Below are positions 3,230 through 57,465 of a stretch of 64,000 nt of DNA, one piece after another; positions within the stretch are counted from its first letter, which is position 1, and each line of letters begins with the position of its first letter. Both the position numbers and the translations under genes were made by a program. Source of the stretch: a virus (Duplodnaviria > Caudoviricetes); IMG/VR virus record IMGVR_UViG_3300033067_001807, positions 1 through 64,000 of that record, one strand, 5' to 3'. A model generated the notes under the pieces. That model did not search any database. It saw only the letters and a program-made list of their open reading frames with translations, and was not told the origin of the DNA.

Positions 3230-4516
3230 TTATCTGCCGTATTTAATAATACCTAGTAGTGAATTTATTGCGGCGAATGTTCCTGTAAGCTTCATTGTCT
3301 TTCCTTTATAAACAAAAACAATACCTTCAGTTGGAATAATTGAGTCTATTCCTCCGATTCTATCAAGTCTTTCAAGTTCTGAAATTACTTTATCGACTTG
3401 TGGGGCTTCTCCTCCTTTTTTAATTTTATCTGCCTCAGATCTAATTTGTGCATGCAATCTTTGCATCTCGACTGCAGGGTTTGCTGCCACAAAGTTACTT
3501 GCATTTTTTAAGATAATACTACCCAACTCCAGAAATAAATCTTCAAATGGTCTAATATTTTCTTTATATTTCTTTTTAACGTCTTCTTTGTCAAATTTCT
3601 TAATTAATTCAGCCTGATCTTTTCCAAGTTCTTTATCTAAACTTCTTAAGTTAAGTGTTTTCTTGTCATCGTATGCCCATCTAAGTAGTAGACCCTCTTT
3701 AAAGTTTTGTGATAACGCTGGGAAATTTTTGTCAATTTGCTCTCTCCACCACATTTCATGATATTTAGAAACTTCATCAGCATCTGTTAATTTATAACGA
3801 TTTTTAAGTTCCTCTACCTTTGCAATAAATTTACCTTTGTTTTCACTGAAATTTAAGTCCTTACCTATTTGAATAATTTGAGGAGGGATTACTGTAAATA
3901 CCTTTCCTATATGTGATTTAACGTCCTCTAGGGCCTTTGCAATTGAGCGTGCATATTTATCTTCAGATCCAATAATATTACCCTCACCGTCAGTTATTTT
4001 AATCCCATGGAACTGTATAACATCTCTATCATAATAGATTACATTTGGATTTTTAGAATAAATAAGCTCCATGTTCATGAAGTTTTTACCATTGTTAAAT
4101 GCCTCTAAATCATTTGGTGATAATTTAATAAGTAAGGTAGCTAAATCATCTGCTGCAAATTGAAATGTGTCCTGTACTAATTTACTAGGATGTCCTTCAA
4201 ATTTTTGTTTAAACGCAGAAAGATCCATTGGATTTTTTAGTTCGGTTTTATTTCTTGCAAATTTAACTTGACCATCCTGTACTGTAGCAAAAACGTTTTG
4301 ACCATCGGTTTTTTCAGTAGGTTCCTTTTCAAATGTTAAATTACCGGATAGCCCTGCCTCAATGATTTTTTTAAAATCCCCAAAAGTTAAATCATGTTCA
4401 TCAAATGGATGTGACATATGCCCTGCTGCTCCGCCTTCAAGTAAAAGTTGCTCATGTAATTTAACTTCGTATTTTTCAGTTAAAAACTGATTAAAATTAA
4501 GGATTCTTGTTTTCAT
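3230..4516 (-). CDS. ATP-dependent ligase/nucleotidyltransferase-fold protein (RNA ligase-like) with capsid-targeting-like N-terminus
   Basis: TEKTDG (KxDG motif I), NMELI, EGIVF...KLTG (motifs IV/V-like). Start moved to ATG 4516 (MKTRILNFNQFLTE) because the upstream extension overlaps a hairpin/promoter. Confidence 0.6.
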   Translation of the reverse strand: MKTRILNFNQFLTEKYEVKLHEQLLLEGGAAGHMSHPFDEHDLTFGDFKKIIEAGLSGNLTFEKEPTEKTDGQNVFATVQDGQVKFARNKTELKNPMDLSAFKQKFEGHPSKLVQDTFQFAADDLATLLIKLSPNDLEAFNNGKNFMNMELIYSKNPNVIYYDRDVIQFHGIKITDGEGNIIGSEDKYARSIAKALEDVKSHIGKVFTVIPPQIIQIGKDLNFSENKGKFIAKVEELKNRYKLTDADEVSKYHEMWWREQIDKNFPALSQNFKEGLLLRWAYDDKKTLNLRSLDKELGKDQAELIKKFDKEDVKKKYKENIRPFEDLFLELGSIILKNASNFVAANPAVEMQRLHAQIRSEADKIKKGGEAPQVDKVISELERLDRIGGIDSIIPTEGIVFVYKGKTMKLTGTFAAINSLLGIIKYGR

Positions 4517-4533
4517 ATTGTAAATATAATAAA

Positions 4534-4563
4534 AATACCTGACATAATAAAACATCAGGTATT
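4534..4563 (-). terminator. Hairpin AATACCTGA...TCAGGTATT plus T-run, followed by TATATTTAC promoter-like box
   Basis: 9-bp inverted repeat at 4534-4542 and 4555-4563 between two genes. Confidence 0.6.
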
Positions 4564-4579
4564 ATTTATTTAAATTATT

Positions 4580-6298
4580 TTAAGATTCTTGAGAGATTTC
4601 TTCGTTCGTATCTGATTCTCCTAAAGAACCTGTTAACATTCCAACGCATGCACCATAATCTCCATCACATTTTTTAAGAATTCCATCTGCAACTTCTCCA
4701 GCTTTAGCTTCGTCAAAGTCAGTACCGAACGCTTTTTTCAAAACACTCATTGCATATTCTTTAAATTCATCGTCAGATTTGATTTCTGCTTCATTGACTA
4801 GGGATTCAAATAAAGTTAATTCATAGCGATATGCATATGATTTATCAGCTGTACTTTTTGATAGCTTCTTAGTAGCAAATCCCATAGATTTTAATTTCTT
4901 TTCGATTTCATCTCTACGTTGTTTATCTTCACATCTAAAAATTAAACGATCACTATTTCCATGAGAACCTTTTTCAAGTTCAACACTATTTGCGCCAATT
5001 CCGTATGGGTTATTTTCATACTTATCTCTAATTTCTTCAAATGACATAGCTTCATTAACTAAAGATTCTTTGATTCCTAATTCTTGTAATTTTCTAACAG
5101 GTACACCTTTCTTTTCTTCATCATCCGGATTAGGATATGCTAATAAATTAGCAGCAATTAATCTTTTGTAGATTTCTGCTTTAACTAATCCAAAATCAAT
5201 TGAGTCACTTGAATTTTCCCAAGTATCTGCGACATGTTCTGGATCGATCCAACCATATCCTGACTTGATATTTTTAACCATGTCGTTAAAATCGGCGTCA
5301 AATCGCTTAACAGCGGCCTCTGAGATTACTGACTCATTTTTTTTTACTGAATCCTTTAACGCATCTAATTCTTTTTTCAATTCCTTAGGTAGACCTCTTT
5401 CGATTCCCCAATTAAAACTTGCGTTAACTAACATATATAATGGTAAGTTCTCATTTCTTTTGCCATAAGGCGAAGATTCAATCCATGATAAATAATGGTC
5501 AGCTAATTCCTTTGACATTTTAATACCTTCTGCCTCTGTTGAATCACCGTCAACGATTCCTTTAAGTAATTTTTTAGCCATACCATGTTTTCCTTCAGTA
5601 ATCACAGTTTCGAACATTTTAGCTAATTTACTTTTTTTAAGAGTCATTGTAATAAAATCTACAATTTCATCAAATTCAAACATTTCATCATATAAATCTT
5701 TGAAAATAATCTCGGCCGATTTTAGCAAGGCATCCATTGCCTTAGTATTATGAAGTCCGTCCATTCTATCAAATGCGCTTCTGCTAATTGCCTCATCTAA
5801 ATGTTCTTCAACTTTATAAGTTTCTCCTTCAAATTCAAATTCAGATTCTCCTGCCTCTTTTGCTTTTCTAACTGCATCTCCAAAAGCATTACCTTCTTCA
5901 ATGGATTCCTTAACGCCAGTATCTTTAATTGTTACTTTATAAGTTTTACCATTAAATTCGAATTCATCTTTACCTTCTGCTTTGGCCTTTCCAGCAGCAT
6001 ATACAAATGCATTACCTTCTTCTAATTTTTTAGGTTCTCCTAATTTATTGATTTCGTCTTCAATATCTTCTGCTTCATCTTCTGAAACATTACCGAACAT
6101 TTTACTAATTAGTGCCTGTTTTGTATCTTCTTCCAATTCAGTTAGAGAGGTTACTCCCATTTCATCAAGGATTTCTCCAATTTTACCAACAGTTTCCTGT
6201 CTTTTTGCGTTGTTTTCTTCTCGTAGTTTCATTGCAGTTTCCTGGTTTTTAACCTCAGTAAAACTTTTAAATGAAGAGATTTTGTTAACTTCTGCCAT
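4580..6298 (-). CDS. Modular putative internal-head polyprotein (572 aa)
   Basis: Seven protease-site-like linkers at E94, E135, E169, E235, E327, E416 and E503; duplicated EEGNAF module; late-promoter-like motif upstream. Confidence 0.75.
   Translation of the reverse strand: MAEVNKISSFKSFTEVKNQETAMKLREENNAKRQETVGKIGEILDEMGVTSLTELEEDTKQALISKMFGNVSEDEAEDIEDEINKLGEPKKLEEGNAFVYAAGKAKAEGKDEFEFNGKTYKVTIKDTGVKESIEEGNAFGDAVRKAKEAGESEFEFEGETYKVEEHLDEAISRSAFDRMDGLHNTKAMDALLKSAEIIFKDLYDEMFEFDEIVDFITMTLKKSKLAKMFETVITEGKHGMAKKLLKGIVDGDSTEAEGIKMSKELADHYLSWIESSPYGKRNENLPLYMLVNASFNWGIERGLPKELKKELDALKDSVKKNESVISEAAVKRFDADFNDMVKNIKSGYGWIDPEHVADTWENSSDSIDFGLVKAEIYKRLIAANLLAYPNPDDEEKKGVPVRKLQELGIKESLVNEAMSFEEIRDKYENNPYGIGANSVELEKGSHGNSDRLIFRCEDKQRRDEIEKKLKSMGFATKKLSKSTADKSYAYRYELTLFESLVNEAEIKSDDEFKEYAMSVLKKAFGTDFDEAKAGEVADGILKKCDGDYGACVGMLTGSLGESDTNEEISQES
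5810..6025 (-). repeat. Two tandem intragenic modules EEGNAF..A..KAK..G..EFEF.G.TYKV
   Basis: Residues about 92-123 and 133-163 of ORF 4580-6298. Confidence 0.85.
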
Positions 6299-11030: not shown

Positions 11031-11687
11031 TTAAGCCTGAGGGTAAAATAAACTTCTTGCTAAATGATTTAAAAAATAAGCATCGACTAAATCATCCATT
11101 GGTTTAGGTATAGTTTTAACTACTCCAATGTTATCTTTACAGAATTTAAGAAGAGATGAGTTTTTAAGTTCTTCATCATTTAAAATGTTATCAAGAAATT
11201 TAACCCAAAGTTCATCTTTTTTCATGTTACCTTTTCCAGCATGTTTCTTAATAGTAGAAGGTGATATTGTCATCATTTCTAAGACTTCAAGTCTAGACAT
11301 CATTTCCATTTTTAAGATTGCTGCTCCAGCTGCCATGTCAATAATATTGTTAGTGCCTGCAGAAGAACCATAAGAAGAACCTTCAAACGCAATTACAAAA
11401 GGAGATTCATTACCTGTGATTTCTATAATCATATCGATAATGTCCTTCGCAGTTTGGGTATGTCTTTGGATTTTAATCATTTCACTTTTAGAATAAGCCT
11501 CATTGTTAGTCCAATCAGGTTGATGTGAAATTCTAGTGTCTTCAAGAAGATTAAGTTCTTCCTGTAAGATTTGTTCCTTTTTAGTTCCAGTCTTTGGTTT
11601 TAAATAACCTATAAAATTATATTTGTTATCTTTAAAAACGCAGATGCCTGGTGAGTTAAGTGAAAAGTCAATAGTTACAAAATTCAT
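11031..11687 (-). CDS. RuvC-like Holliday junction resolvase / RNase H-fold nuclease
   Basis: IDFSLNSPG, FEG, PSTIKKHAGKGN and DDLVDAY acidic triad. Start moved to MNFVT (11687). Confidence 0.8.
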   Translation of the reverse strand: MNFVTIDFSLNSPGICVFKDNKYNFIGYLKPKTGTKKEQILQEELNLLEDTRISHQPDWTNNEAYSKSEMIKIQRHTQTAKDIIDMIIEITGNESPFVIAFEGSSYGSSAGTNNIIDMAAGAAILKMEMMSRLEVLEMMTISPSTIKKHAGKGNMKKDELWVKFLDNILNDEELKNSSLLKFCKDNIGVVKTIPKPMDDLVDAYFLNHLARSLFYPQA

Positions 11688-11688
11688 A

Positions 11689-12057
11689 TTAGATTCTTTT
11701 ACCAAGAGCAGCACCTAAAGCAGCACCAACAAGTCTTGAGGTTAACATGTCATACATGATTCCATCTCTAATACCTAAAATATTTGCAACTGTCTTTCCA
11801 ACTGTCTTTCCAAGAGCAAATCCTGCAAGTCCACCGAATATACTTCCTAAAATACCTTCATTAGTTAATTCCTCATTGAAACGACTAACGTCATAAGATC
11901 CATCTTCCAATTGATATGTTGCAGTAAATTCATCAAGCGCAGCATTAACTTTAGCTTCAAGTTCATCGCTCCATTCGGTCTGTAGAGATTCATTTAATAT
12001 CTGTAACTCTGCTTCAGTAATATTTTGTTCGTTAATGTAATCTAAAAATGTTTTCAT
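11689..12057 (-). CDS. Small protein with capsid-targeting-like tag, acidic pro-region and C-terminal glycine-zipper helices
   Basis: MKTFLDYINE start; LTNE|GILGSIFGGLAGFALG...LVGAALGAALG; GATATATAA just upstream. Confidence 0.7.
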   Translation of the reverse strand: MKTFLDYINEQNITEAELQILNESLQTEWSDELEAKVNAALDEFTATYQLEDGSYDVSRFNEELTNEGILGSIFGGLAGFALGKTVGKTVANILGIRDGIMYDMLTSRLVGAALGAALGKRI

Positions 12058-12070
12058 AAGTTATATATCT

Positions 12071-12622
12071 TTAATCTATTTCTAATGCAATATTAAATTT
12101 ATTATAGTAGAAGTTTAAATCAAATGTTGTAAATTCAGCAATATTAGAACTCATATTAAGGTCAAGTTCTGAAATAGAATTTAAAATTGGTTTTTCAAAA
12201 ACTGCACTTATAATATGAATACCTTCTGCATCCATTATCTGTAATTTAATATCATCGATAAATGGTTTTCTAATCTGTTTTGAATAATAATACAGCAAAG
12301 TGTCTTGCATAATCCAATAATTGATGTAGCCATCTAAAAGTTGCATAGTAACTTTAAATTGTCTATCAATTGTATTTTGTATCGGAATAGAACCTCTGTG
12401 ATATGTGATAGTTCCATCATTTGGTGCTACCTCAATCGGATCAAACGTAATACCTGGTAAATTTACTCCCTGAATTGAATAGTTAATAAAATCAATTGGC
12501 TCAGTAATTAAATTGCCTGGCATTCTATTTAAATACTTACGGTATTTATCAGCAACCTCCTTAGGAATAAAAGTCCTTGGAAATTTAAAATTAAATAAGT
12601 TATTTCTGCTGTTTAAAATCAT
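12071..12622 (-). CDS. Tail-tube-fold protein (gp3 tail completion / gp19-like)
   Basis: SIQGVNLPGITF and terminal TTFDLNFYY resemble T4-like tube/terminator proteins. Confidence 0.55.
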   Translation of the reverse strand: MILNSRNNLFNFKFPRTFIPKEVADKYRKYLNRMPGNLITEPIDFINYSIQGVNLPGITFDPIEVAPNDGTITYHRGSIPIQNTIDRQFKVTMQLLDGYINYWIMQDTLLYYYSKQIRKPFIDDIKLQIMDAEGIHIISAVFEKPILNSISELDLNMSSNIAEFTTFDLNFYYNKFNIALEID

Positions 12623-14685
12623 TATATGATATTTACGTTTCCATAGTATAATAGCGATTCTGTACCACCATTTTTAATATTAATATAGAACTTGTCAGCA
12701 TATTGATTTGTATCTGATTGGTCAAATCTATTTGCAACGTCCTTTGTAACTTTAAAGAATATTTCGCCATTACCCATGTCAACACCTGGAAATGAAGGGT
12801 CATGTGAAATTCTTTGTTCTATTGTTCCACTTTTAATAATTAATACAAGGTCTTCAGAATTTACAAGACTAATTGCATTTAATACACCATCACCTGGTTT
12901 TGCAACTTTAAACTTAATAAAATTATCAGAAACCTTTGATAGTACAATAGTACCAACTCCTTCAACTTCATATTTAATATCGGCAGTCGCAGACACATCT
13001 ACTCCATCTACTGACATTTTTGTATTCGATGCAACAATTCCATAAGTGTCTAATGCAACTGGAACATATTTAGTTTCTCCTACCGTTGGTCTAATAGAAT
13101 TTACAAATTGATTTAATTCTCTATTAACCGATGTATTGGGTAATGTGTTATATACAATTGTTGGTGAAAAACTTGAATTTAAGTTTAACTTTAATAATTT
13201 TTTACCATATTTTTTAGGTTGACTATAGATTAATGAAGCAACCTTTAAAATCTGAGTATTATCTGTTTCATTGTAAATACGCATATTTACAGTTATTAAA
13301 AAGTTACTTGTTATTGAAGAATTCATAATAACTGGTCTAAACACTATTTCCTCATCAAACTGTGAAGTTTGCGTAAACGTATTTGTAAAAGTATTGACAT
13401 AATTAAGACCAATCTGTTCACTAACTTGTACTTCATAAAATATTGTTAAATCATCTCCAGAAGTTTGCATTTTTCCATTAATGTAACTTTCAAATTGAGA
13501 TTGGGAACCATCTTTAGTTCCATATATTTGAAAATAATCTCCATCGTCAGCATGCTTAATATTTACAGCTAAATCTACATATTCATCTTCCCGTGAAAGA
13601 ACAATTGATGTTCCTTCTGCTAAATTAATATAGTCATATCCATTTATAGTGATTACCTGACTTATTAATTTAAAATCAATCTCATAGTTTACTGAATTTA
13701 TAACAGCATCATTTGTATTTGCTTGGCCAAAGAAACTTTCTTGAAATTCAAGATTTTTAGTTGGTTCATACATATACACTAATGAAGGTACTTTAATTTC
13801 AATATATTTTGAATATGAAGTTTCTCCTAGTATAAATGGGTTTGGATTTTGAATTTCAAAGTTAGATGAATTTAAATAAACCAAAGAGTTAAAATAATTA
13901 TAAACACCTGATTTTCTTTTAACCTTTGTTTGAAATAAAAATCCATCATATCCTCTACCACTAAATGAATATCCTGTTCTTAGGTGTAATCGAATTGTGT
14001 CATACCAAACTGCATTTACCTCTTGGGTAGGCACAACTATTAAGTCATTGGACTTTGTTCCATTCCATTCAGTGGAATCTAAATAATTTAAAGAATTATT
14101 TAATAATGCCAGTGTGTTATCTATTTCAGTTGGAACTGCATAGTATCTTCCACTCTCACCAGGTGCTGTTTTTATGTCATTTCCTGTTTGAGCATGTGGT
14201 GTTGAAAATAATGAGCTTGCTCTATTTGAAACTTCGATCTGCCCTCCTATAAATTCCTTTCCAGCTAAATTTGTGTATTCATATCTGTAATTTCCATTAG
14301 TTGTAGGAGAATACACATATATTTGCCCGGTTATATATCCATTTCCTCCGGGAATATTAAAGCCATTAATATTATCGATACTTAGATCTGTTAAATCAAA
14401 CTTATATGTTTTACCATTTCTAAGTAATAATTGTCTACTTGCAAATCCATTTATAACAACGTATCCATTAGATATTGCAACCGTGAATTCAACAACATCA
14501 TCTCCAAGTTCATTAATTAAGAATCTGGAAGCACTATTATCTCCTTCAACTACATTTAAATATTTAAGTTGACTTCCATTGTTATCATTTTCAATCATTG
14601 CTTCATTTGCATTTGATTGGTCATGATAGATGAATTCCAATAATACATCTTCATCTATTCTTAAAAATCTTGATGATTTTGCCAT
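12622..14685 (-). CDS. Putative virion structural protein
   Basis: 687 aa, beta-rich, within the structural operon. Confidence 0.6.
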   Translation of the reverse strand: MAKSSRFLRIDEDVLLEFIYHDQSNANEAMIENDNNGSQLKYLNVVEGDNSASRFLINELGDDVVEFTVAISNGYVVINGFASRQLLLRNGKTYKFDLTDLSIDNINGFNIPGGNGYITGQIYVYSPTTNGNYRYEYTNLAGKEFIGGQIEVSNRASSLFSTPHAQTGNDIKTAPGESGRYYAVPTEIDNTLALLNNSLNYLDSTEWNGTKSNDLIVVPTQEVNAVWYDTIRLHLRTGYSFSGRGYDGFLFQTKVKRKSGVYNYFNSLVYLNSSNFEIQNPNPFILGETSYSKYIEIKVPSLVYMYEPTKNLEFQESFFGQANTNDAVINSVNYEIDFKLISQVITINGYDYINLAEGTSIVLSREDEYVDLAVNIKHADDGDYFQIYGTKDGSQSQFESYINGKMQTSGDDLTIFYEVQVSEQIGLNYVNTFTNTFTQTSQFDEEIVFRPVIMNSSITSNFLITVNMRIYNETDNTQILKVASLIYSQPKKYGKKLLKLNLNSSFSPTIVYNTLPNTSVNRELNQFVNSIRPTVGETKYVPVALDTYGIVASNTKMSVDGVDVSATADIKYEVEGVGTIVLSKVSDNFIKFKVAKPGDGVLNAISLVNSEDLVLIIKSGTIEQRISHDPSFPGVDMGNGEIFFKVTKDVANRFDQSDTNQYADKFYINIKNGGTESLLYYGNVNII

Positions 14686-33698: not shown

Positions 33699-33968
33699 CT
33701 ATTTAACTTTTTTATCTCCTTTTTTAAGTGTAAAGGATTTATATGATTTTAAATATGACGCAGAATCTACCCAATCAGCAATAACATGCTGAATCATAAT
33801 GATAAAATCGTTCATTGTATCATTTCTTTGTATATATTCCGAAATAGAATTTGACAAAATATTAAGACGATAATTGTTTCCTACATGTTTTCTATTATCC
33901 ATTGCAGATAATTTAGTATCATATGATTTTAATTTTCGTACCTTAAATAAATTACTTAATATATCCAT
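33699..33968 (-). CDS. Hypothetical protein
   Basis: Translationally coupled between baseplate genes. Confidence 0.6.
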   Translation of the reverse strand: MDILSNLFKVRKLKSYDTKLSAMDNRKHVGNNYRLNILSNSISEYIQRNDTMNDFIIMIQHVIADWVDSASYLKSYKSFTLKKGDKKVK

Positions 33969-35788
33969 TAAATTGTTTTTCTATTTTGTGCCTGTATTCT
34001 ACTAAATACTGTGTTTGGTATTGCTGGCTCATCAAAATAAATCGATAATGCAGCCATTTCACCTATTCGAGCACCATCTTCCACGGTTGCTCCATCTCTA
34101 TCTTTCCATCCTCCTCTAAATAAAGCAACTTCTTCTTTTTCTAAAAGAATATCTCCAAAAGAATCTAAATTTATTACATTTTCTGGAAGAGCCGCACCTG
34201 GTTCAAAGTTTATTTGTTGTTCTGTTTCTGTTCTTTTAAAGAAAACATATTTTGATTTTCCATTACCAATGTCTTCGAGTACTGGCGTGCTTGGAGTTAC
34301 TGTAACGGTTTTTGAGATATAGTAACCATTTCTTCTGGCTGTCTCTTCTTTTTCAGAAACAAATCTAACATTTACAGAGTCTATACCTTCAATACCCTCT
34401 AAAAGAGCAATGATATCTGACTTTGGTAAACGATCTCTTCTTGTAATATTAATTAAGTAGTTTGAAATTTTTGAACGAATTTCATTATATAAATTATTTT
34501 TATCAAATCCTTCAAAATATCTTACTTTAACATCCATTCTAAAATATTGTACTTGTGGCTTAACGATTTTTACTTCGGTTGTAACCATTTGTTGTCCTGA
34601 CTTTTCAAGTACATTTAATATTGCATTAGTCTCGTCTTCTGAAAAAAAGAACTCTTCTTTATTAAGATTAAAATAGTCATTATTTTTTGAAAGCTTTCTG
34701 GCAGTATCTGGCAACATAAATATGTATATCACATTGTCATCGTCAATAAATCCATCCTCTGTCGTGTTATATGCATCTAAATATGAAAACATACCATACT
34801 TAGACAGAAACGCCTCATAGTTTTCTGGTTTTGCCAACACAAATGAATGACTCTGTAAAGGTGCAATTAATTTAGTTAATTCTATTGGCTCCGGATCTGA
34901 CCCCATTGATGGTGCAATAGTAAATGAAGATTCTAATAATTGGTTTAAATTGTAATTATTTCCTAAAGAATCGAATCCCTCTGTTGTAAATCTAAAATTA
35001 AGATCTTTAGAACCTGTTAAATTTCCTCTTGAACCTTCTGTAATTACGTACTCAACTCCAATAGATGCTCCTTCATTTGGAATCATACCAAAAGAACCAT
35101 TACCGAAATAAATGTCAAGTCCTCCAGTAATTCCGGTTTTTACCAAATAACCCTTTGTCCCGACCTTCATATCATATAATGAATCATACTTTGTCCAAGG
35201 TTCTCCATTAACACTTACCTTAACCGAATGATGATCTGTATTCCTTTTAACTATAACATTAAATGATTGTAATTTTTCACCAGTACCTGTCAACGTTTGC
35301 GATTCTATTTTTCCTTGAATAACAGGAATATAGATATATTCTGGATTGCTTTTTTCAATTCTAAATTGATCGTTATTTGTTTTTAACATATACTCCAACC
35401 CATTCTTAGTTGATGTAATTATTGTATTCGCTGGAATATTAATTGCATCTCCAGCAATATCATTAAATGCGCTTGTATTTAATCTAACCTTTATTTCACC
35501 TGTGGCAGAAGTTCCTCTGAATGGGTCATGGCCTGCAAGTCTCGCAAGTCCATATATAGATTCTTTATTTTGGGCAGTTAATATGTTTTGTTCTACCACA
35601 GCATCTTCAACATAGAAAAATACTAAATTAGTCAATTCAGTTAATACTTCTAGTATCTGTGAAAATGGTGATGCGGTTGTAAATAACTCACCAGTTCTAC
35701 CATATAATCTACTGATATATGTTCTAGTGTCGGTTAACATTTCGTTAGCCTTAATTCTAGCGGTCGATAAAAATTTTAATTCTGCCAT
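33968..35788 (-). CDS. gp6: Baseplate wedge protein, gp6/baseplate-J-like
   Basis: SIYGLARLAG; FGNGSFGMIP...IGVEYVITEGSRGN; next to gp25-like gene. Confidence 0.75.
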   Translation of the reverse strand: MAELKFLSTARIKANEMLTDTRTYISRLYGRTGELFTTASPFSQILEVLTELTNLVFFYVEDAVVEQNILTAQNKESIYGLARLAGHDPFRGTSATGEIKVRLNTSAFNDIAGDAINIPANTIITSTKNGLEYMLKTNNDQFRIEKSNPEYIYIPVIQGKIESQTLTGTGEKLQSFNVIVKRNTDHHSVKVSVNGEPWTKYDSLYDMKVGTKGYLVKTGITGGLDIYFGNGSFGMIPNEGASIGVEYVITEGSRGNLTGSKDLNFRFTTEGFDSLGNNYNLNQLLESSFTIAPSMGSDPEPIELTKLIAPLQSHSFVLAKPENYEAFLSKYGMFSYLDAYNTTEDGFIDDDNVIYIFMLPDTARKLSKNNDYFNLNKEEFFFSEDETNAILNVLEKSGQQMVTTEVKIVKPQVQYFRMDVKVRYFEGFDKNNLYNEIRSKISNYLINITRRDRLPKSDIIALLEGIEGIDSVNVRFVSEKEETARRNGYYISKTVTVTPSTPVLEDIGNGKSKYVFFKRTETEQQINFEPGAALPENVINLDSFGDILLEKEEVALFRGGWKDRDGATVEDGARIGEMAALSIYFDEPAIPNTVFSRIQAQNRKTI

Positions 35789-36170: not shown

Positions 36171-37001
36171 TTAAGAATGCATCATCCAGTCAGTGCCTTC
36201 ATCTGTTTTGATTTCTTCTATAACCTTTTCTAATTCCTCTTCACCAAGCCCCTTAATAGCGTCAGCATTTACTTCAATGTTTCCAGGAAGAGCAAATCCA
36301 AATATAGATAATTTTTGTCCTAATGAAATTTTAACCTTTGCTGCGCAATATCTAAAAAATGCTTCATCAGCAAATAATGCACATTCCGGAATAGTTTCAT
36401 ATATTTCTAAAATAATGTCTTTCTTTGGAGTCTCTCCGGTAAATCTCAATTCTTTTGTTAATTGATTGTAGTGATAACTAATTGGATTTTGAATAATTTG
36501 CCTTGCTAAATCATAGAAGCTTTCATTAATAACATATGCCTGTAGGTTTTCAGCCGCGGCTCCAGTATTCGAACCACCATACATTCCACCCATTAAAATA
36601 CGTTCCATTGAAAAATCTCCTTGTGTAAAGTTAATGTCCATTGAACCTCCCCATCTTGAACCTGTTTCGAAAACACCATATACAGAGTATACTTCATTTC
36701 CGCCAGTTGTTGGGTCCATTCCTGGTAGAGTAAAACTTCTCTTTCTTTTAAATTGTTCAGAAGAAAAAAGGTTAACTGGTAGAACCATGAAATTTTCTTT
36801 TACAGAATATTCATAATTTTTATAGAACCATTTCTTTGCGTTTTTAACAATGTTTTGAACCTCTTTTTTTGGAAGATTCATTGGAATCATACATGAACCA
36901 GTAACATCATCTGCCAATTCATTTACAAAATTATTAAAACAATCGTTTGACCATACCGGATCTTCTAAGTGGCTTTCATTACCTATAATAATATCACTCA
37001 T
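36171..37001 (-). CDS. Neck protein (gp13-like)
   Basis: YHYNQLTKELRF; RYCAAKVKISLGQKLSIFGFALPGNIEVNADAIKGLGEEELEK resembles the T4-like neck C-terminus. Confidence 0.65.
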   Translation of the reverse strand: MSDIIIGNESHLEDPVWSNDCFNNFVNELADDVTGSCMIPMNLPKKEVQNIVKNAKKWFYKNYEYSVKENFMVLPVNLFSSEQFKRKRSFTLPGMDPTTGGNEVYSVYGVFETGSRWGGSMDINFTQGDFSMERILMGGMYGGSNTGAAAENLQAYVINESFYDLARQIIQNPISYHYNQLTKELRFTGETPKKDIILEIYETIPECALFADEAFFRYCAAKVKISLGQKLSIFGFALPGNIEVNADAIKGLGEEELEKVIEEIKTDEGTDWMMHS

Positions 37002-37018
37002 TTTTATATTTTATATTT

Positions 37019-38311
37019 TTATATTAATTGATATTTAATAATTTCAACATCATTAAATTTTGCTAGCTTTTTGTCATAGCTTCCTTCTCTAAATATTCCA
37101 CCATACATTGTACCTTTGAAAACTCCTTTTCCATATACATAGCAATCACTAGTTGAACATGTTCCATGCACATACGATGAGTCTATTTTACTTGAAGTAA
37201 TTTGAGTACCTGAATAAAAATTACAGTAATGAATGTCGGAACCCTGTACATCACATCCATACATATCGCATGTTGTAAATTCTCCTCTTAAGAAACAACC
37301 GACGAATTCATAATCATGAAGATCCACACAATATTCAAGCCTTCCGTTTGAAACCTGTATTCTACCTGTATCAGAATCATAATTGATATGTCCTTTTGAA
37401 AGTTCACCGTGTGTAAATAGTCTCATTACTCTATCCCTAACACTTGGCCAATAGAGATCCACTACCTTTGGATTTTCCTTTAGGTCAACTGTAAATTTTA
37501 CGTTTTTCCAATTATCCGCAATGGTTTTCCAGTTTTTTCTGGCGTCAATTATTCTTTGATTTGCTGAGATAATTCTTTTAAGTTCAATTGCATTAAGTTC
37601 TGAAAATTCAGTGTTTTCAGTTGATTTCCATAATTGCATTAAAAAACTATCAACAAGATGCAGTATTTTTGTTGTCTTTTTTTCCCAATCTGCTCCACCC
37701 ACATATCTAAATTCTAAATAATTTTTGTGTCTTTTGTCAAAATTTATACCATAATATTTTGAGTCGGGAAAGATAAAGTTTTGTTGATTAATATATTTAC
37801 CATCAAAGAAATACGTGTCCTCTTTAGGTAGTACAAATTTTATTGATTTTGCGTATGCTGAATTTTCTCTCTTAGGAAACAATTTAAATACTTGCTCCTC
37901 ATTGAAATCTAGAATGAATTTAAGGGTATTCATCTTAGAGATTCTATATTTATTGTCAATCTTAGATTTATCAAATGAAAGATTCAGGTGAATCGAGGAA
38001 CGGTCATTTGTATATCCATTCTCTTCTATCCATTTACATACATTAATTATCATTAATCTTGCTGCAAAATACGGAAGAGCTCCAGTTACAAGCTCAAGTA
38101 GCTTTGCGCCACCTGACATATCTGGTTCTATTTTAAATTCATCTTGAGTTACTTCAAAATCACTGTGCGCTTTTGTCTCAACATGTATTTTTTTGCCTAA
38201 TAGTTTTGCAAGTTTATTAGCAGTTTCTGATGCACTGAAATTTGAATAAAATTCAAATTCAACACCTATTAAGGCGTTTTGTAAAATGCTTGCGTCATTA
38301 AGGTTATTCAT
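37019..38311 (-). CDS. Putative amidoligase (COOH-NH2 ligase fold) with C-terminal beta-helix-like repeats
   Basis: IGVEFEF, IEPDMSG..LELVT, SSIHLNLS, KYYGIN and LEFRY motifs; Cys/Ser/Gly-rich 5-residue periodicity at the C-terminus. Confidence 0.7.
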   Translation of the reverse strand: MNNLNDASILQNALIGVEFEFYSNFSASETANKLAKLLGKKIHVETKAHSDFEVTQDEFKIEPDMSGGAKLLELVTGALPYFAARLMIINVCKWIEENGYTNDRSSIHLNLSFDKSKIDNKYRISKMNTLKFILDFNEEQVFKLFPKRENSAYAKSIKFVLPKEDTYFFDGKYINQQNFIFPDSKYYGINFDKRHKNYLEFRYVGGADWEKKTTKILHLVDSFLMQLWKSTENTEFSELNAIELKRIISANQRIIDARKNWKTIADNWKNVKFTVDLKENPKVVDLYWPSVRDRVMRLFTHGELSKGHINYDSDTGRIQVSNGRLEYCVDLHDYEFVGCFLRGEFTTCDMYGCDVQGSDIHYCNFYSGTQITSSKIDSSYVHGTCSTSDCYVYGKGVFKGTMYGGIFREGSYDKKLAKFNDVEIIKYQLI

Positions 38312-38359: not shown

Positions 38360-39169
38360 TTATAGTAGGGAATCTAGTTTTGCTTGTAACTTTTTTAAGG
38401 TCTTTTGATAATCTACGATTGATTTTCTTTTCCATTCAATATTCATTTGTTTCCAAGAAGCAATTCTTTTAGCGATTCCATTATCACGCTCTGAATTATA
38501 GAATGACTCGTCATTGTTGTAGTTTTTAGCAGCATCTCTACTTACAATTTCTTTCCATGTTGGCCATTCATGCCAAGACTCTCTAGGATTATCTTTAATA
38601 GATTGAATGATTTCAGCATCAGTTAATTTAGAATTTGTTTCAGCATCTTCAGTTGCTCTTTTAATTCTAACTTCGTAGCTCTGAATTTCTTGGTTAAGTT
38701 TTTCAAGCTTAGACATTTTCTTAATCTTCTCAGAATATTCTTTTGAAATTTCACTGGCACCGGTTTTAGGGATATTTGTCTTAACAATATATCTATAGTG
38801 AAGTCTTTGGATGTTGTGACCACCTGCATAAATTGCTTCAGTTACAAAACTATATGTAGTTCCTTCTCTTTGGATTTGAGAAGATATTTCAATATTTCCT
38901 TTAGCACTTTTACTAACATTAAGAGAAAGTAACAAATCAGTGGGTTGTGTATATGCTTCAACTGCTTTAACCATATCAAAGATTAAATTTAATCTTGCCA
39001 TTTCTCTGTCATATTTAGTAAACTCCTGTTTAAATGTTTCAGTAAACCATTTTTCGGTAGCTGCTAACATTTCTACAATAGTAGGTTCCATCGAATCCAA
39101 AATAACATTTACAATATTATTTTGTTTGGATTCATTAACGAATTGATTATATGTTTTAAATTTACTCAT
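38360..39169 (-). CDS. Hypothetical protein with capsid-targeting-like N-terminus
   Basis: MSKFKTYNQFVNE|S; C-terminal coiled coil. Confidence 0.65.
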   Translation of the reverse strand: MSKFKTYNQFVNESKQNNIVNVILDSMEPTIVEMLAATEKWFTETFKQEFTKYDREMARLNLIFDMVKAVEAYTQPTDLLLSLNVSKSAKGNIEISSQIQREGTTYSFVTEAIYAGGHNIQRLHYRYIVKTNIPKTGASEISKEYSEKIKKMSKLEKLNQEIQSYEVRIKRATEDAETNSKLTDAEIIQSIKDNPRESWHEWPTWKEIVSRDAAKNYNNDESFYNSERDNGIAKRIASWKQMNIEWKRKSIVDYQKTLKKLQAKLDSLL

Positions 39170-39186
39170 AATATATTTATCTGTTT

Positions 39187-39260
39187 AATTATAGTGTAAA
39201 TATAAACAAAAAACCCGAGACTAAAAAATCTCGGGTAAATTATTTCAAAAAGTTATTAAC
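39187..39260 (-). promoter_or_regulatory. Conserved intergenic element, copy 1: GTTAATAAC / hairpin / T-run / TATATTTACACTATAATTA
   Basis: Hairpin ACCCGAGA..TCTCGGGT; flanks near-identical to 53477-53551 and 57389-57465. Confidence 0.8.
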
Positions 39261-39262
39261 GC

Positions 39263-40453
39263 CTATAGTTTCAAGAAAACTTTTCTAGTGTCAACATCTA
39301 TTCTTGTGATTTGAACGGTAATTGGGCTGTTTTTTGTAAGTGAATCTAATTCTATTCCTTCAGGTAATTCTGAGATATGCAATAATCCTACAATTCCATC
39401 CCCAATGTCAACAAATACTCCATAATCTTTAACAGATTTAATTGTACCTGTAACTTCTACTGGAAAAGATTTATACTTTCCTGCAACTTCTTTCCATGGA
39501 TCTATGGTTTCAGTATATTCGATTTGCGTTAATGTAATTTTAGTATCACTAATAATCTCTTTAACTTTAAATTCAATTACATCACCTGGATTAATTTCTC
39601 TCGCTTTGTGTTTTTTAGCCATTTCAGGAGATAAATCGTTGGCATGAATCATACCAGTTAAACATCCATCAAACTCAACAAATACACCATATTTGGCAGA
39701 ACCTGTAACATTTCCAGTTTTTGTTTCTCCAATACTATTTTTAAGCTCTTCAACTTTACTTGGAATCATCGCCTGTAAATATTTTCTATGCGATACAATG
39801 ACGGTTCCTCTTTCCGGTGAGTAACTCATAGGCACAACATACATTTGTGTATTTAAAATAGATTCAAACTCTGCAAGTTTATTAATTCCTGCAAGTGAAC
39901 CTGGCATGAAACAATCGATACCTTGTACATTTACAAAATAACCTCCATTTGGAATCATTCCAGTCACGGTTCCAATATATGCAGTATTTTGATTTTCAGC
40001 AGATGCTAATATTTCTTTAAGTATTGCAGCTTTAATTCCAGCTTCAACCGAACCTAAAATAAATCCTTTATTGTTTCTACCTGTTGTAATTTCAACATCT
40101 ACCCTTTGGCCTGGTATTAATTTAGCCTTTGAAATAACTGACTCTCTTGACATATTTACATATATCATTTCTTTGTGTCCAATATCGATTGAAGCCCATT
40201 CTTGGTCAACTGAATATACAGTTCCATTATGCGTTTCTCCGGCATTTACAGAATATACTAAGTTTGCATCTGTTAATACGTTTTCCATTAGGTCATAAAG
40301 TTCTTGAGCATACGGCTCTCTTGAATATACTTTATGTCCACCCTTTGTTTTTACGTGTGGATTCGATTTTCTACTTATTGATGGGCAATCAGATACATAA
40401 GCATCCCAATCAAATTTTGGATTTCCATCAATTGTAATTGTGTTTTTTGACAT
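39263..40453 (-). CDS. rpsA: Ribosomal protein bS1 homologue (four S1 domains, Bacteroidota-type N-terminus)
   Basis: FDWDAY N-terminal motif; four S1 repeats (VQGIDCFMPGS, KYGVFVEF..GMIH..DL, DPW..V, DYGVFVDI..GLLHISEL). Confidence 0.85.
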   Translation of the reverse strand: MSKNTITIDGNPKFDWDAYVSDCPSISRKSNPHVKTKGGHKVYSREPYAQELYDLMENVLTDANLVYSVNAGETHNGTVYSVDQEWASIDIGHKEMIYVNMSRESVISKAKLIPGQRVDVEITTGRNNKGFILGSVEAGIKAAILKEILASAENQNTAYIGTVTGMIPNGGYFVNVQGIDCFMPGSLAGINKLAEFESILNTQMYVVPMSYSPERGTVIVSHRKYLQAMIPSKVEELKNSIGETKTGNVTGSAKYGVFVEFDGCLTGMIHANDLSPEMAKKHKAREINPGDVIEFKVKEIISDTKITLTQIEYTETIDPWKEVAGKYKSFPVEVTGTIKSVKDYGVFVDIGDGIVGLLHISELPEGIELDSLTKNSPITVQITRIDVDTRKVFLKL

Positions 40454-40501
40454 TTTTTTTTAGTTTAAGTGTTAATATTAATAGTTTATATATACGTTTT
40501 A

Positions 40502-42189: not shown

Positions 42190-42909
42190 CTATTTACCTT
42201 TTTGCTGATAATCTTTATGAGATGATTTTAGACTGCTAACAGTTGAAGGTGTTGCTGCAGCAGGAGGCCCTGAAGGTCCAACTCCAGTTGGATGAAAATG
42301 GTTTTTATAATCATCAAGCAATTTATTCAACCATTTTTCTAATGATACTCCACGAACAGCTGGTTCCGATTCATCTTCACTACCCTCTCCAGTGTTACTT
42401 AAAAATATGTTTCCTGAATCAAGGAATATCTTTTCATTACTGGATATTTTAATAAATCCAGCTTCATCAATTTGAATTAAAGGTCTTTCCTTTGCTCCAC
42501 TTCCTCTTGTAATTACAAGTCCGTCCTCCGGTGAGTGATAGATTCTAATGTTTCTTACCTCATCATATACCAGTGAAACAACATCATGTGCTGCGCCTGA
42601 TGCTTCTAAAATGTCCTGTTTTAATGATTTACTTTGATTAATCTGAAACCAATACTCCGGGTGGTATATGTTACCGTTATCAAAACGTACCGCCACGATT
42701 GTACCGATATTTGGGGTGTGATGTGCACCTACAAAATCTCGATTCATTGGAGTTGCCCATGGAATAGCATCATTTGGTAATTTATCAAATTTACCAAAAA
42801 CTTTAATGCGGCATCTTCCAAGAAATTTAGGGTCGGCATTATCCACAACCTCACCGATCCAGTGGGTTTCCCTAATATTATCTTTGTCTAATTCTTTATC
42901 TGTTGCCAT
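42190..42909 (-). CDS. gp5: Baseplate central spike, gp5 OB-fold / gpV-like, without lysozyme
   Basis: GEVVDNADPKFLGRCRIKVFG...IPWATP; C-terminal HFHPTGVGPSGPP (HxH tip). Confidence 0.8.
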   Translation of the reverse strand: MATDKELDKDNIRETHWIGEVVDNADPKFLGRCRIKVFGKFDKLPNDAIPWATPMNRDFVGAHHTPNIGTIVAVRFDNGNIYHPEYWFQINQSKSLKQDILEASGAAHDVVSLVYDEVRNIRIYHSPEDGLVITRGSGAKERPLIQIDEAGFIKISSNEKIFLDSGNIFLSNTGEGSEDESEPAVRGVSLEKWLNKLLDDYKNHFHPTGVGPSGPPAAATPSTVSSLKSSHKDYQQKGK

Positions 42910-53476: not shown

Positions 53477-53551
53477 AATTATAGTGTAAATATAAACAAA
53501 AAAAGCCAAACAAAAAATGTTTGGCTAATTATTTTCTAAAAAGTTATTAAC
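53477..53551 (-). promoter_or_regulatory. Conserved intergenic element, copy 2
   Basis: Hairpin AGCCAAACA..TGTTTGGCT with the same flanks as 39187-39260. Confidence 0.8.
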
Positions 53552-55656: not shown

Positions 55657-55836
55657 TTATAAATCTCTCGATTGTTTATATCTTGCCTTTATAATCTTTT
55701 TTCTTTTTGATATTGATGGTTTTTCATAAGACGTATTGTCGCGTAATTCAGATAGCTGTTTAGTTGCAATTACCTTTTGCTTCAATTGTTTTAGTGCCCT
55801 TTCTATGTTTCCTTTTTCTACATTTATAATTAACAT
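55657..55836 (-). CDS. rpsU: Ribosomal protein bS21, Bacteroidota-type; not in ORF track
   Basis: Hand translation: MLIINVEKGNIERALKQLKQKVIATKQLSELRDNTSYEKPSISKRKKIIKARYKQSRDL (59 aa), with bS21 hallmarks MLII.V, I.RALK and Y.KPS..R. Confidence 0.9.
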   Translation of the reverse strand: MLIINVEKGNIERALKQLKQKVIATKQLSELRDNTSYEKPSISKRKKIIKARYKQSRDL

Positions 55837-57388: not shown

Positions 57389-57465
57389 TAATTATAGTGT
57401 AAATATAAATAAAAAATGCCAAACAAAAAAATATTTGGCAATTTATTTACAAAAAAGTTATTAAT
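57389..57465 (-). promoter_or_regulatory. Conserved intergenic element, copy 3
   Basis: Hairpin TGCCAAA..TTTGGCA with the same flanks. Confidence 0.75.

What the first reader, a model, noticed from the sequence alone, without database searches (positions are those of the whole stretch)
39263..40453. Phage-encoded four-domain bS1 with the host-type ribosome-anchoring N-terminus
Seen: FDWDAY matches the F[ND]WDA[YF]E motif of Bacteroidota bS1; there are four S1 repeats instead of six; the gene lies inside the baseplate/neck cluster behind a late-type motif. Known: bS1 recruits A/U-rich, SD-less mRNAs, Bacteroidota largely ignore SD, and bS1 homologues have been reported in some huge phages. Inference: it replaces host bS1 to bias ribosomes to phage late mRNAs.
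Basis: partly seen in the sequence, partly recalled or inferred. Interest (0 to 1): 0.7.

Follow-up and report, generated by a model that had tools for sequence, protein, structure and literature searches.

The report
Phage-encoded short ribosomal protein bS1
A marine jumbo phage, probably of Flavobacteria-type hosts, carries its own four-domain copy of ribosomal protein bS1 that keeps the sequence features bS1 uses to dock on the small ribosomal subunit, so it probably plugs into host ribosomes, a known kind of phage gene for which this gives unusually specific, testable evidence.

Summary
ORF 39263-40453 (-) encodes a 396-aa protein collinear with bS1 domains 1-4. An AlphaFold model shows four OB folds, and its best structural matches are ribosome-bound bS1 chains. 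It lies in the baseplate/neck module of a jumbo-phage fragment, an 81.5-kb IMG/VR record about 27% complete.

The N-terminus has two fixed elements. F14-x-W16 matches the F[DN]W helix of class Bacteroidia bS1, which contacts uS8 in the F. johnsoniae 30S structure. Y48-A49-Q50 matches E. coli F5-A6-Q7, the uS2-binding helix. A 17-residue phage-specific insert separates them. The basic OB1 residue matching E. coli K43 and the OB2 signature are also fixed.

The protein belongs to a large clade of short S1 proteins; every genomic context examined for it was phage. The clade is not nested in Bacteroidia bS1, though an AU test does not exclude that origin. Its slot in the module is conserved down to 38% identity.

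The phage's genes lack SD sequences, and it also encodes a Bacteroidia-type bS21.

Ribosome docking is likely but not shown. "Replaces host bS1 to favour late mRNAs" is untested. Phage rpS1 was reported in 2020, so this is a new member of a known kind. The scan noted the same gene type on other genomes.

The parts
39263..40453 (-). Gene for the 396-aa phage bS1 homologue (P0001)
   Evidence: ORF. rpsA HMMs about 140 bits, collinear D1-D4. E. coli bS1 E = 1e-37. Foldseek top hits are ribosome-bound bS1.
40397..40414 (-). Residues 14-19, FDWDAY: F-x-W element matching the uS8-contacting helix of Bacteroidia bS1
   Evidence: F14 and W16 are 64/64 invariant. Bacteroidia bS1 carry F[DN]W. The F. 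johnsoniae helix FLANFNWHNF contacts uS8 (PMC13000457). hhalign probability 77%.
40346..40396 (-). Residues 20-36: phage-specific 17-residue insert in the connector, with invariant C23 and N31 and near-invariant P24 and K35
   Evidence: The hhalign gap lies opposite the Bacteroidia profile. Conservation. Lak-A2 phage S1 has the same +34 spacing.
40268..40315 (-). Residues 47-62, helix PYAQELYDLMEN...: equivalent of the uS2-binding N-terminal helix of bS1
   Evidence: Model helix at 49-62. Y48, A49 and Q50 are 62-63/64 conserved. They match E. coli F5-A6-Q7, which contact uS2 (PMC10123108).
40049..40234 (-). OB domain 1 (residues 74-135), with D90, G92 and K94 matching E. coli D39, G41 and K43 (uS2 Zn-pocket lysine)
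   Evidence: Alignment. Position 94 is K or R in 64/64. Model.
39791..39979 (-). OB domain 2 (residues 159-221), with the bS1 domain-2 signature GGY..V.G....FMPGS
   Evidence: Y172 and F182 are invariant and align to E. coli F120 and F130.
39527..39724 (-). OB domain 3 (residues 244-309), canonical RNA-binding S1 domain
   Evidence: Pfam S1, model, alignment to E. coli D3.
39269..39460 (-). OB domain 4 (residues 332-395), canonical RNA-binding S1 domain. The protein ends here, with no D5 or D6.
   Evidence: Best Pfam S1 stretch 334-394, model. The family-wide C-terminus is at the same place.
40485..40500 (-). Late-type promoter-like motif AAAACGTATATATAAA upstream of the S1 start
   Evidence: Identical in a relative whose S1 is only 54% identical.
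39213..39236 (-). Intrinsic-terminator hairpin directly after the S1 stop codon
   Evidence: 10-bp stem followed by a T-run. A hairpin at the same place in L223.
39184..39210 (-). Second-class promoter-like element TTTGTTTATATTTACACTATAATTAAA serving the next gene (38360-39169)
   Evidence: Repeated upstream of at least four genes of the contig. Conserved in L223.
55657..55836 (-). Phage-encoded bS21 (59 aa), the 30S platform partner of the bS1 N-terminus
   Evidence: Pfam Ribosomal_S21 49.9 bits against a cut-off of 27. The best solved matches are 9i5v_9 and F. johnsoniae 7jil_z, and the C-terminal Tyr is kept. Nearest cellular relatives are 9/12 Bacteroidota.

Best explanation
The gene encodes a compact, phage-lineage version of ribosomal protein bS1.

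Shown: it is collinear with bS1 domains 1-4 and has four OB folds. Its N-terminal region carries the Bacteroidia-type F-x-W element and the uS2-helix equivalent, and OB1 has a fixed basic residue at the position of the uS2 Zn-pocket lysine. All of these are fixed across a large family of short S1 proteins. The gene is a discrete unit (late-type motif, gene, terminator) held in the same slot of the T4-like baseplate/neck module across deep divergence. The phage's own genes lack SD sequences and have A-rich leaders. The phage also encodes a Bacteroidia-type bS21.

Inferred: late in infection of a Bacteroidia (probably Flavobacteriales) host, the protein docks on the 30S platform at the normal bS1 site. 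The F-x-W helix would sit on uS8, and the YAQ helix and OB1 on uS2, next to bS21. It would occupy sites that host bS1 holds only weakly and sub-stoichiometrically. OB3 and OB4 would then capture A/U-rich, SD-less phage leaders and so sustain or favour initiation on the very abundant late structural mRNAs. The 17-residue basic, Cys-Pro-containing insert may add a contact that strengthens binding relative to host bS1.
For: bS1 identity:
- All top NCBIfam hits are rpsA models, aligned collinearly.
- E. coli bS1 matches at E = 1e-37.
- Foldseek's best hit is 9gut_B, E = 9.5e-28, over 367 columns.
- The model shows four OB folds.

Anchor:
- F14 and W16 are 64/64. Y48, A49 and Q50 are 62-63/64. D90 is 61/64 and G92 59/64. 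Position 94 is K or R in 64/64.
- Among sampled cellular bS1, the motif occurs only in class Bacteroidia.
- The F. johnsoniae cryo-EM places the FNW helix on uS8 and the N-terminus on uS2 and uS8 (PMC13000457).
- E. coli F5, Q7 and K43 contact uS2 (PMC10123108).
- hhalign of the N-termini gives probability 77% against a 1.2% control.
- Lak-A2, a Prevotella phage, has the same motif at the same spacing.

Context:
- The phage genes are SD-less: 1 of 82 has an SD 5-mer, and G is 2-12% at -20 to -1.
- It carries a Bacteroidia-type bS21. In F. johnsoniae, loss of bS21 destabilises the bS1 N-terminus.
- The late-type motif and the terminator are conserved.
- Synteny holds at 54% and at 38% identity.
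- Late expression and ribosome substitution were proposed for phage bS21 in related ecology (PMC9723584).
Against: - There is no binding, expression or selectivity data of any kind.
- Scores are far below every curated rpsA cut-off: about 141 bits against 524 or more.
- D1-D4 form a separate long-branch clade outside all sampled cellular bS1, so function may have diverged.
- The F-x-W helix has only moderate model confidence (pLDDT about 60).
- The connector is 17 residues longer than in Bacteroidia, so the geometry on uS8 and uS2 is unverified.
- 14 of 41 clade members lack F-x-W.
- D5 and D6 are missing. From general knowledge of E. coli S1, these contribute to RNA unwinding and autoregulation.
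- The host is inferred, not shown.
Confidence: 0.55

Rival explanations
1. Dominant-negative ribosome blocker used for host shut-off. The protein docks at the bS1 site through its anchor, but because it lacks D5-D6 it cannot support initiation on structured host mRNAs. It therefore displaces host bS1 and silences host translation, while unstructured A-rich phage leaders still initiate.
For: It rests on the same anchor evidence as the main explanation and on the absence of D5-D6. From general knowledge, N-terminal fragments of E. coli S1 inhibit translation of canonical mRNAs when over-produced.
Against: OB3 and OB4 keep canonical RNA-binding S1 signatures. The promoter motif points to late expression alongside structural genes, which is late for a shut-off factor. 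Four-domain bS1 proteins function naturally in some bacteria (general knowledge).
Confidence: 0.12
2. Off-ribosome RNA chaperone or mRNA protector, or a cofactor of a phage RNA enzyme. The protein binds A/U-rich phage transcripts free in the cytoplasm. Precedents are host S1 acting with T4 RegB or as a subunit of Q-beta replicase.
For: S1 domains are generic RNA binders. [quoted passage not shown] Scores fall below the rpsA cut-offs. The clade sits on a long divergent branch.
Against: This does not explain why the non-RNA-binding anchor features are invariant: F14, W16, Y48-A49-Q50, K/R94 and the OB2 signature. Nor does it explain why the F-x-W element otherwise occurs only in Bacteroidia ribosomal bS1.
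Confidence: 0.15
3. Virion-packaged takeover factor. The protein is made late, is packed into the particle because of its structural-module position, and is injected to reprogramme ribosomes at the start of the next infection.
For: It keeps a stable place in the baseplate/neck module down to 38% identity and has a late-type promoter motif. The same idea was raised for phage bS21 (PMC9723584).
Against: No capsid-targeting or protease-site feature was seen at its N-terminus by inspection. It has its own terminator and a moron-like layout. A few injected molecules could not load the many ribosomes of a cell. This reading is not exclusive of the main explanation.
Confidence: 0.1

Closest known systems
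rpS1-like genes of huge phages (Al-Shayeb et al. 2020, PMC7162821; records LR756500-LR756504; Lak megaphages)
   Same: Multi-S1-domain proteins in phages of 200 kb or more that lack SD sequences. tblastn identity is 29-43%. Lak-A2 shares the F-x-W element and the YAQELYD helix at identical spacing. Short metagenomic S1 proteins of the same length and identity range form one clade with the window protein; the Lak and LR sequences themselves were not in the tree.
   Different: The paper could not confirm 'true' rpS1 and described no ribosome anchor. The LR756500 protein has a DPF-type N-terminus instead of F-x-W. Lak-A2 and LR756500 have no bS21. This family is marine and sits in a T4-like baseplate module.
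Flavobacterium johnsoniae bS1 (PDB 9zcd_A; PMC13000457)
   Same: F-N-W aromatic helix followed by a second helix ahead of OB1. The order F-x-W, Y-S, amphipathic helix, OB1-OB4 is the same.
   Different: The host protein has six domains (591 aa) and a connector 17 residues shorter. D1-D4 are only about 25% identical, and the phage clade lies outside Bacteroidia on the tree.
Escherichia coli bS1 (e.g. 6h4n_y, 8A3L; PMC10123108)
   Same: Collinear over D1-D4. F5-A6-Q7 matches Y48-A49-Q50, K43 matches K/R94, and F120/F130 match Y172/F182.
   Different: E. coli has no F-x-W element, has D5-D6, and works with SD-bearing mRNAs.
Phage-encoded bS21 of Bacteroidetes-infecting jumbo phages (Chen et al. 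2022, PMC9723584)
   Same: A 30S-platform ribosomal protein encoded among structural genes of jumbo phages with Bacteroidetes hosts. Late expression and ribosome substitution were proposed. This phage also has a bS21.
   Different: It is a different protein. Those freshwater genomes were reported to lack other ribosomal-protein genes, whereas this contig has both bS1 and bS21.
bS1 of cyanophage PhiMa05 (PMC13157829)
   Same: A phage-encoded bS1 proposed to replace the host protein.
   Different: That gene groups with cellular (Vampirovibrio-like) bS1, which indicates recent capture. The protein here belongs to an old, phage-specific clade.

Membership tests
Ribosomal protein bS1 (rpsA) | Tandem S1/OB domains collinear with bS1 D1-D4 | tested here: met
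   rpsA HMM alignment of residues 51-393 to model positions 28-370. E. coli residues 20-309. Four OB folds. Foldseek top hits are bS1.
Ribosomal protein bS1 (rpsA) | Score above the curated NCBIfam/TIGRFAM rpsA cut-offs | tested here: not met
   Best score is 141 bits against a cut-off of 524 (NF004952), and 139.6 against 577 (TIGR00717). The shortfall comes partly from the missing D5-D6 and partly from divergence. Sampled Bacteroidia bS1 also fall just below the TIGR00717 cut-off.
Ribosomal protein bS1 (rpsA) | N-terminal helix that binds uS2 (E. coli F5, Q7, F9) | tested here: met
   At sequence level only. The helix is at 49-62, and Y48-A49-Q50 are 62-63/64 conserved, matching FAQ. Actual binding was not testable.
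Ribosomal protein bS1 (rpsA) | OB1 loop-2 basic residue for the uS2 Zn pocket (E. coli K43), and the OB2 signature F120/F130 with FLPGS | tested here: met
   K/R94 in 64/64, and D90, G92 and E95 conserved. Y172, F182 and FMPGS invariant.
Ribosomal protein bS1 (rpsA) | Groups with cellular bS1 in a phylogeny | tested here: inconclusive
   The phage short-S1 clade (SH-aLRT 100) lies outside all sampled cellular bS1 on a branch of about 2.1 substitutions per site. The AU test does not reject a grouping with Bacteroidia (p = 0.405). No non-ribosomal multi-S1 proteins were included.
Ribosomal protein bS1 (rpsA) | Physical association with the 30S subunit at the mRNA exit and platform | not testable with these tools
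   This needs pull-down, sedimentation or cryo-EM.
Bacteroidia-type bS1 N-terminus | F[DN]W aromatic helix upstream of the uS2 helix (the uS8 contact in F. johnsoniae) | tested here: met
   FDW at residues 14-16 is invariant. 25/30 Bacteroidia have F[DN]W. It is absent from 34 sampled non-Bacteroidia cellular bS1. hhalign probability 77%.
Bacteroidia-type bS1 N-terminus | Short connector of about 20 residues between the F-x-W and uS2 helices | tested here: not met
   The phage has a 17-residue insert with invariant C23 and N31. Connector lengths vary among the phage subfamilies.
Virus-encoded ribosomal proteins | Encoded on a bona fide viral genome among viral hallmark genes, not on cellular contamination | tested here: met
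   IMG/VR virus record. Baseplate, neck and tail-fibre genes flank it. The same synteny is seen in independent metagenomes. GC content matches the rest of the contig.

The most novel reading that the evidence does not exclude
The short S1 proteins are an old, virus-specific lineage of a ribosomal protein. Their N-terminal module is tuned to the host's 30S platform: the F-x-W type for Bacteroidia, and DPF-type and other forms for other hosts. In this marine lineage bS1 and bS21 together would form a phage-supplied 'platform kit' that converts host ribosomes into phage-specialised ribosomes late in infection. The bS1 N-terminus would then be a ribosome-level determinant of host range.
Probability: 0.2. 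Interest if true: 0.8.

Novelty: new member of a known kind. Interest (0 to 1): 0.5.

Why it matters
Phage-encoded S1-like proteins have been listed since 2020, but the authors said they could not tell true ribosomal S1 from generic S1-domain proteins. This family answers that at sequence level. The positions that are fixed are the ones that do not bind RNA but, in solved ribosomes, contact uS2 and, in Bacteroidia, uS8. This turns a vague annotation into a precise and inexpensive experiment: point mutants at F14/W16 and Y48, tested in the existing Flavobacterium johnsoniae in-vitro initiation system. The family is abundant in ocean metagenomes and is paired here with a phage bS21. It therefore offers a way into how phages of SD-blind bacteria steer translation.

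Tried and rejected
1. Host assignment through the phage ClpC/B-like ATPase. It is 45-52% identical to proteins from many phyla, so it was uninformative.
2. Near-identical DNA in deposited phages: none found. No cultured relative was found in INPHARED either. The Acinetobacter 'phage' rpsA hits are only 23% identical.
3. PHROGs: no family for the S1 protein or for its two immediate neighbours.
4. The first attempt to sample Bacteroidota bS1 by phylum returned mostly non-Bacteroidia classes without the motif. Sampling the class resolved this.
5. A recent capture from a Bacteroidia host, as judged from D1-D4, is not supported by the tree. It is also not rejected by the AU test, so the donor stays open.
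6. bS21 as a universal partner of phage S1: rejected, because Lak-A2 and LR756500 have none.
7. tRNA genes as host clues: none in the 81.5-kb contig.
8. A truncated pseudogene: rejected. The C-terminus is the same across the family and is followed by a terminator.

Full report
WHAT IS THERE. The minus-strand ORF 39263-40453 encodes a 396-aa protein, P0001. Pfam finds S1 domains at 98.9 bits. All the leading NCBIfam hits are 30S ribosomal protein S1 models, aligned collinearly: residues 51-393 match positions 28-370 of a 580-position model. The scores, about 140 bits, are far below the curated cut-offs of 524 or more. Against solved structures, the best matches are E. coli bS1 chains (E = 1e-37), with residues 71-363 aligned to bS1 20-309, that is domains 1-4. 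An AlphaFold2 model built on a 64-sequence family alignment (mean pLDDT 78) shows a short helix at 16-21, a coil, a helix at 49-62, and four OB folds at about 74-135, 159-221, 244-309 and 332-395. Foldseek's top hits are ribosome-bound bS1 chains (9gut_B, E = 9.5e-28 over 367 columns).

GENOMIC SETTING. The window belongs to an 81.5-kb IMG/VR virus record that CheckV estimates to be 27% complete, so it is a fragment of a jumbo phage of roughly 300 kb. Identical S1 proteins occur on contigs up to 217 kb. Almost all genes lie on one strand, and GC is 31% throughout.

The gene order around S1 is:
- a gp5-type hub (42190-42909)
- a 553-aa protein of unknown function
- S1
- a 269-aa protein of unknown function
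- an amidoligase-like protein
- a T4 gp13-like neck protein (36171-37001)
- a gp25-like protein
- a gp6-like wedge (33968-35788)

Tail-fibre genes lie further along. The same order is kept in a TARA Oceans contig whose S1 is 54% identical, and in a contig whose S1 is only 38% identical.

TRANSCRIPTION SIGNALS. ATATATAA occurs 28 times in the window against 15 +/- 4.6 expected. Twenty-three copies are on the coding strand, mostly 20-40 nt before start codons of structural genes. One copy lies at 40486-40493, ahead of the S1 ATG. The extended form AAAACGTATATATAAA is identical in the 54%-identical relative. A 10-bp hairpin plus T-run follows the stop codon (39236-39213). After it comes a second-class promoter-like element that serves the next gene, and this element is also conserved. 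S1 is therefore a discrete unit of late-type motif, gene and terminator. That the motif is a late promoter is an inference from its likeness to the T4 late promoter and from its association with structural genes.

THE N-TERMINUS. Across 64 family members down to 52% identity:
- F14, W16, C23 and N31 are invariant.
- P24, K35, S44, Y48, A49 and Q50 are at least 90% conserved.

In 30 sampled genomes of class Bacteroidia, bS1 carries F[DN]W about 45 residues before OB1 in 25, with FVW or I[ND]W variants in three more. One reads FDWDAYE. Other classes of the phylum and 23 other cellular bS1 lack the motif.

The 2026 cryo-EM study of the F. johnsoniae 30S (PMC13000457) modelled bS1 residues 4-40 as a helix-loop-helix. 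The helix FLANFNWHNF contacts uS8, and the N-terminus associates with uS2 and uS8. PDB 9zcd_A has that sequence.

The classical uS2 anchor is E. coli F5-A6-Q7...F9, stacking on uS2 F32 (PMC10123108). It corresponds to phage Y48-A49-Q50...L52. E. coli K43, which enters the uS2 Zn pocket, corresponds to position 94, which is K or R in all 64 sequences. The OB2 residues F120 and F130 correspond to invariant Y172 and F182.

A profile-profile comparison of phage and Bacteroidia N-termini aligns FDW to FDW (probability 77%, pairwise E = 2e-5). With extension it continues collinearly through a shared Y-S pair into the second helix, and opens one 17-residue gap opposite the phage segment VSDCPSISRKSNPHVKT. 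The control against non-Bacteroidia N-termini gives 1.2%. The S1 of Lak-A2, a phage of Prevotella, has FNW and YAQELYD at exactly the same +34 spacing.

FAMILY AND PHYLOGENY. More than 100 clusters of 393-442-aa proteins share 53-88% identity with the window protein, many of them from marine samples. An exhaustive HMMER search finds a wider set of 365-450-aa four-domain S1 proteins at 30-48% identity. Some of these have F-x-W. Others have a DPF-type N-terminus but keep the K-[IV]-x-S-x-E-P-Y-A-x-E-L helix.

In a 94-sequence maximum-likelihood tree of D1-D4, all 41 short S1 proteins form one clade (SH-aLRT 100). A branch of about 2.1 substitutions per site separates it from all cellular bS1. 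Bacteroidia are monophyletic (100) and do not include the short S1 clade. An AU test on a 51-sequence subset does not reject phage clade plus Bacteroidia as one group (delta lnL 4.5, p = 0.405). The donor lineage is therefore unresolved. The F-x-W-type motif is present in 27 of the 41 clade members, with at least seven state changes on the tree. All genomic contexts examined for clade members are phage.

HOST AND TRANSLATION STYLE. Only 1 of 82 predicted genes has an SD-like 5-mer. G falls to 2-12% from -20 to -1, and A is enriched at -3, -11 and -13/-14. That is the pattern described for Bacteroidia.

Its best solved relatives are 9i5v_9 (41 bits, source organism not checked) and F. johnsoniae 7jil_z (35 bits). 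Firmicutes chains reach only 22-25 bits. It keeps the C-terminal Tyr that stacks on the anti-SD tail in F. johnsoniae (PMC7797042). Nine of its 12 nearest cellular relatives are Bacteroidota, including Flavobacteriales, Chryseobacterium and Olleya. A Bacteroidia host is thus supported by three independent lines of evidence, but it is not proven.

In E. coli, bS21 bridges OB1 to the 16S rRNA. In F. johnsoniae, loss of bS21 makes the bS1 N-terminus and uS2 disordered. The two phage proteins therefore meet at the same site on the 30S platform.

MECHANISM. Most likely (0.55), the protein docks at the bS1 site of host 30S subunits late in infection and uses OB3-OB4 to recruit SD-less, A-rich phage mRNAs. 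In doing so it supplements or displaces the weakly bound host bS1. Docking is inferred from the fixed anchor residues. Timing is inferred from the promoter motif and the gene's position. Preference for phage mRNAs is speculation. The rivals are a dominant-negative blocker, an off-ribosome RNA chaperone or cofactor, and a virion-packaged factor. The off-ribosome reading does not explain why the non-RNA-binding contacts are conserved.

WHAT IS KNOWN.
- Al-Shayeb et al. 2020 reported S1-like genes in huge phages and their link with missing SD sequences, but stated that true rpS1 is hard to confirm.
- Mizuno et al. 2019 set bS1 aside for the same reason.
- Chen et al. 2022 proposed late-stage substitution for phage bS21 in Bacteroidetes phages, and reported no other ribosomal-protein genes in those genomes.
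- PhiMa05 carries a recently captured bS1.

I found no paper describing this marine family or the anchor features. The finding is therefore a new member of a known kind, with a new and testable structural argument. First-reader notes of this scan describe the same gene type on several other genomes; those notes are unchecked.

Noticed in passing
window 55657-55836 (-): An unannotated 59-aa bS21 of Bacteroidia type that keeps the anti-SD-stacking C-terminal Tyr. The phage therefore carries two 30S-platform proteins.
   Followed up: yes
window 39184-39260, 53477-53551 and 57389-57465; also upstream of G000 78549-78974: A repeated composite intergenic element: a conserved flank, a sequence-variable hairpin terminator, then TTTATATTTACACTATAATTAAA immediately upstream of a gene. 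It is a second promoter class, distinct from the ATATATAA late-type motif, and it is conserved in the relative L223.
   Followed up: partly
window 37019-38311 (-): A 430-aa protein with a weak Amidoligase_2 match. It sits between the S1 unit and the gp13-like neck gene, and it keeps this place in relatives down to 38% S1 identity.
   Followed up: partly
L139 (G000 62000-81497): 12307-14277, 11415-12263, 398-2386, 3892-5855: A ClpC/ClpB-like double-AAA+ ATPase, a thymidylate-synthase-like gene, a collagen-repeat fibre with a Peptidase_S74 chaperone domain, and a GT2 glycosyltransferase next to a DUF2827 protein.
   Followed up: partly
L138 (LR756500.1) and P0141-P0143: A subgroup of phage short S1 proteins replaces F-x-W with a [DN]-P-F-[DE] element about 20 residues before the conserved K-I-x-S-x-E-P-Y helix. 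This may be an alternative platform contact for other hosts.
   Followed up: no
L228 and L229 (MAGs labelled Comamonadaceae): Contigs in two MAGs labelled Comamonadaceae carry a bS21 47% identical to the phage protein, like the hits in Bacteroidota genomes. These are probably mis-binned Bacteroidota or phage contigs.
   Followed up: no
family members P0043-P0066 and P0070-P0119: Many family members carry an extra 20-45-residue, Lys- and Glu-rich extension ahead of the F-x-W motif. This resembles the variable charged N-terminal extensions of Bacteroidia bS1.
   Followed up: no
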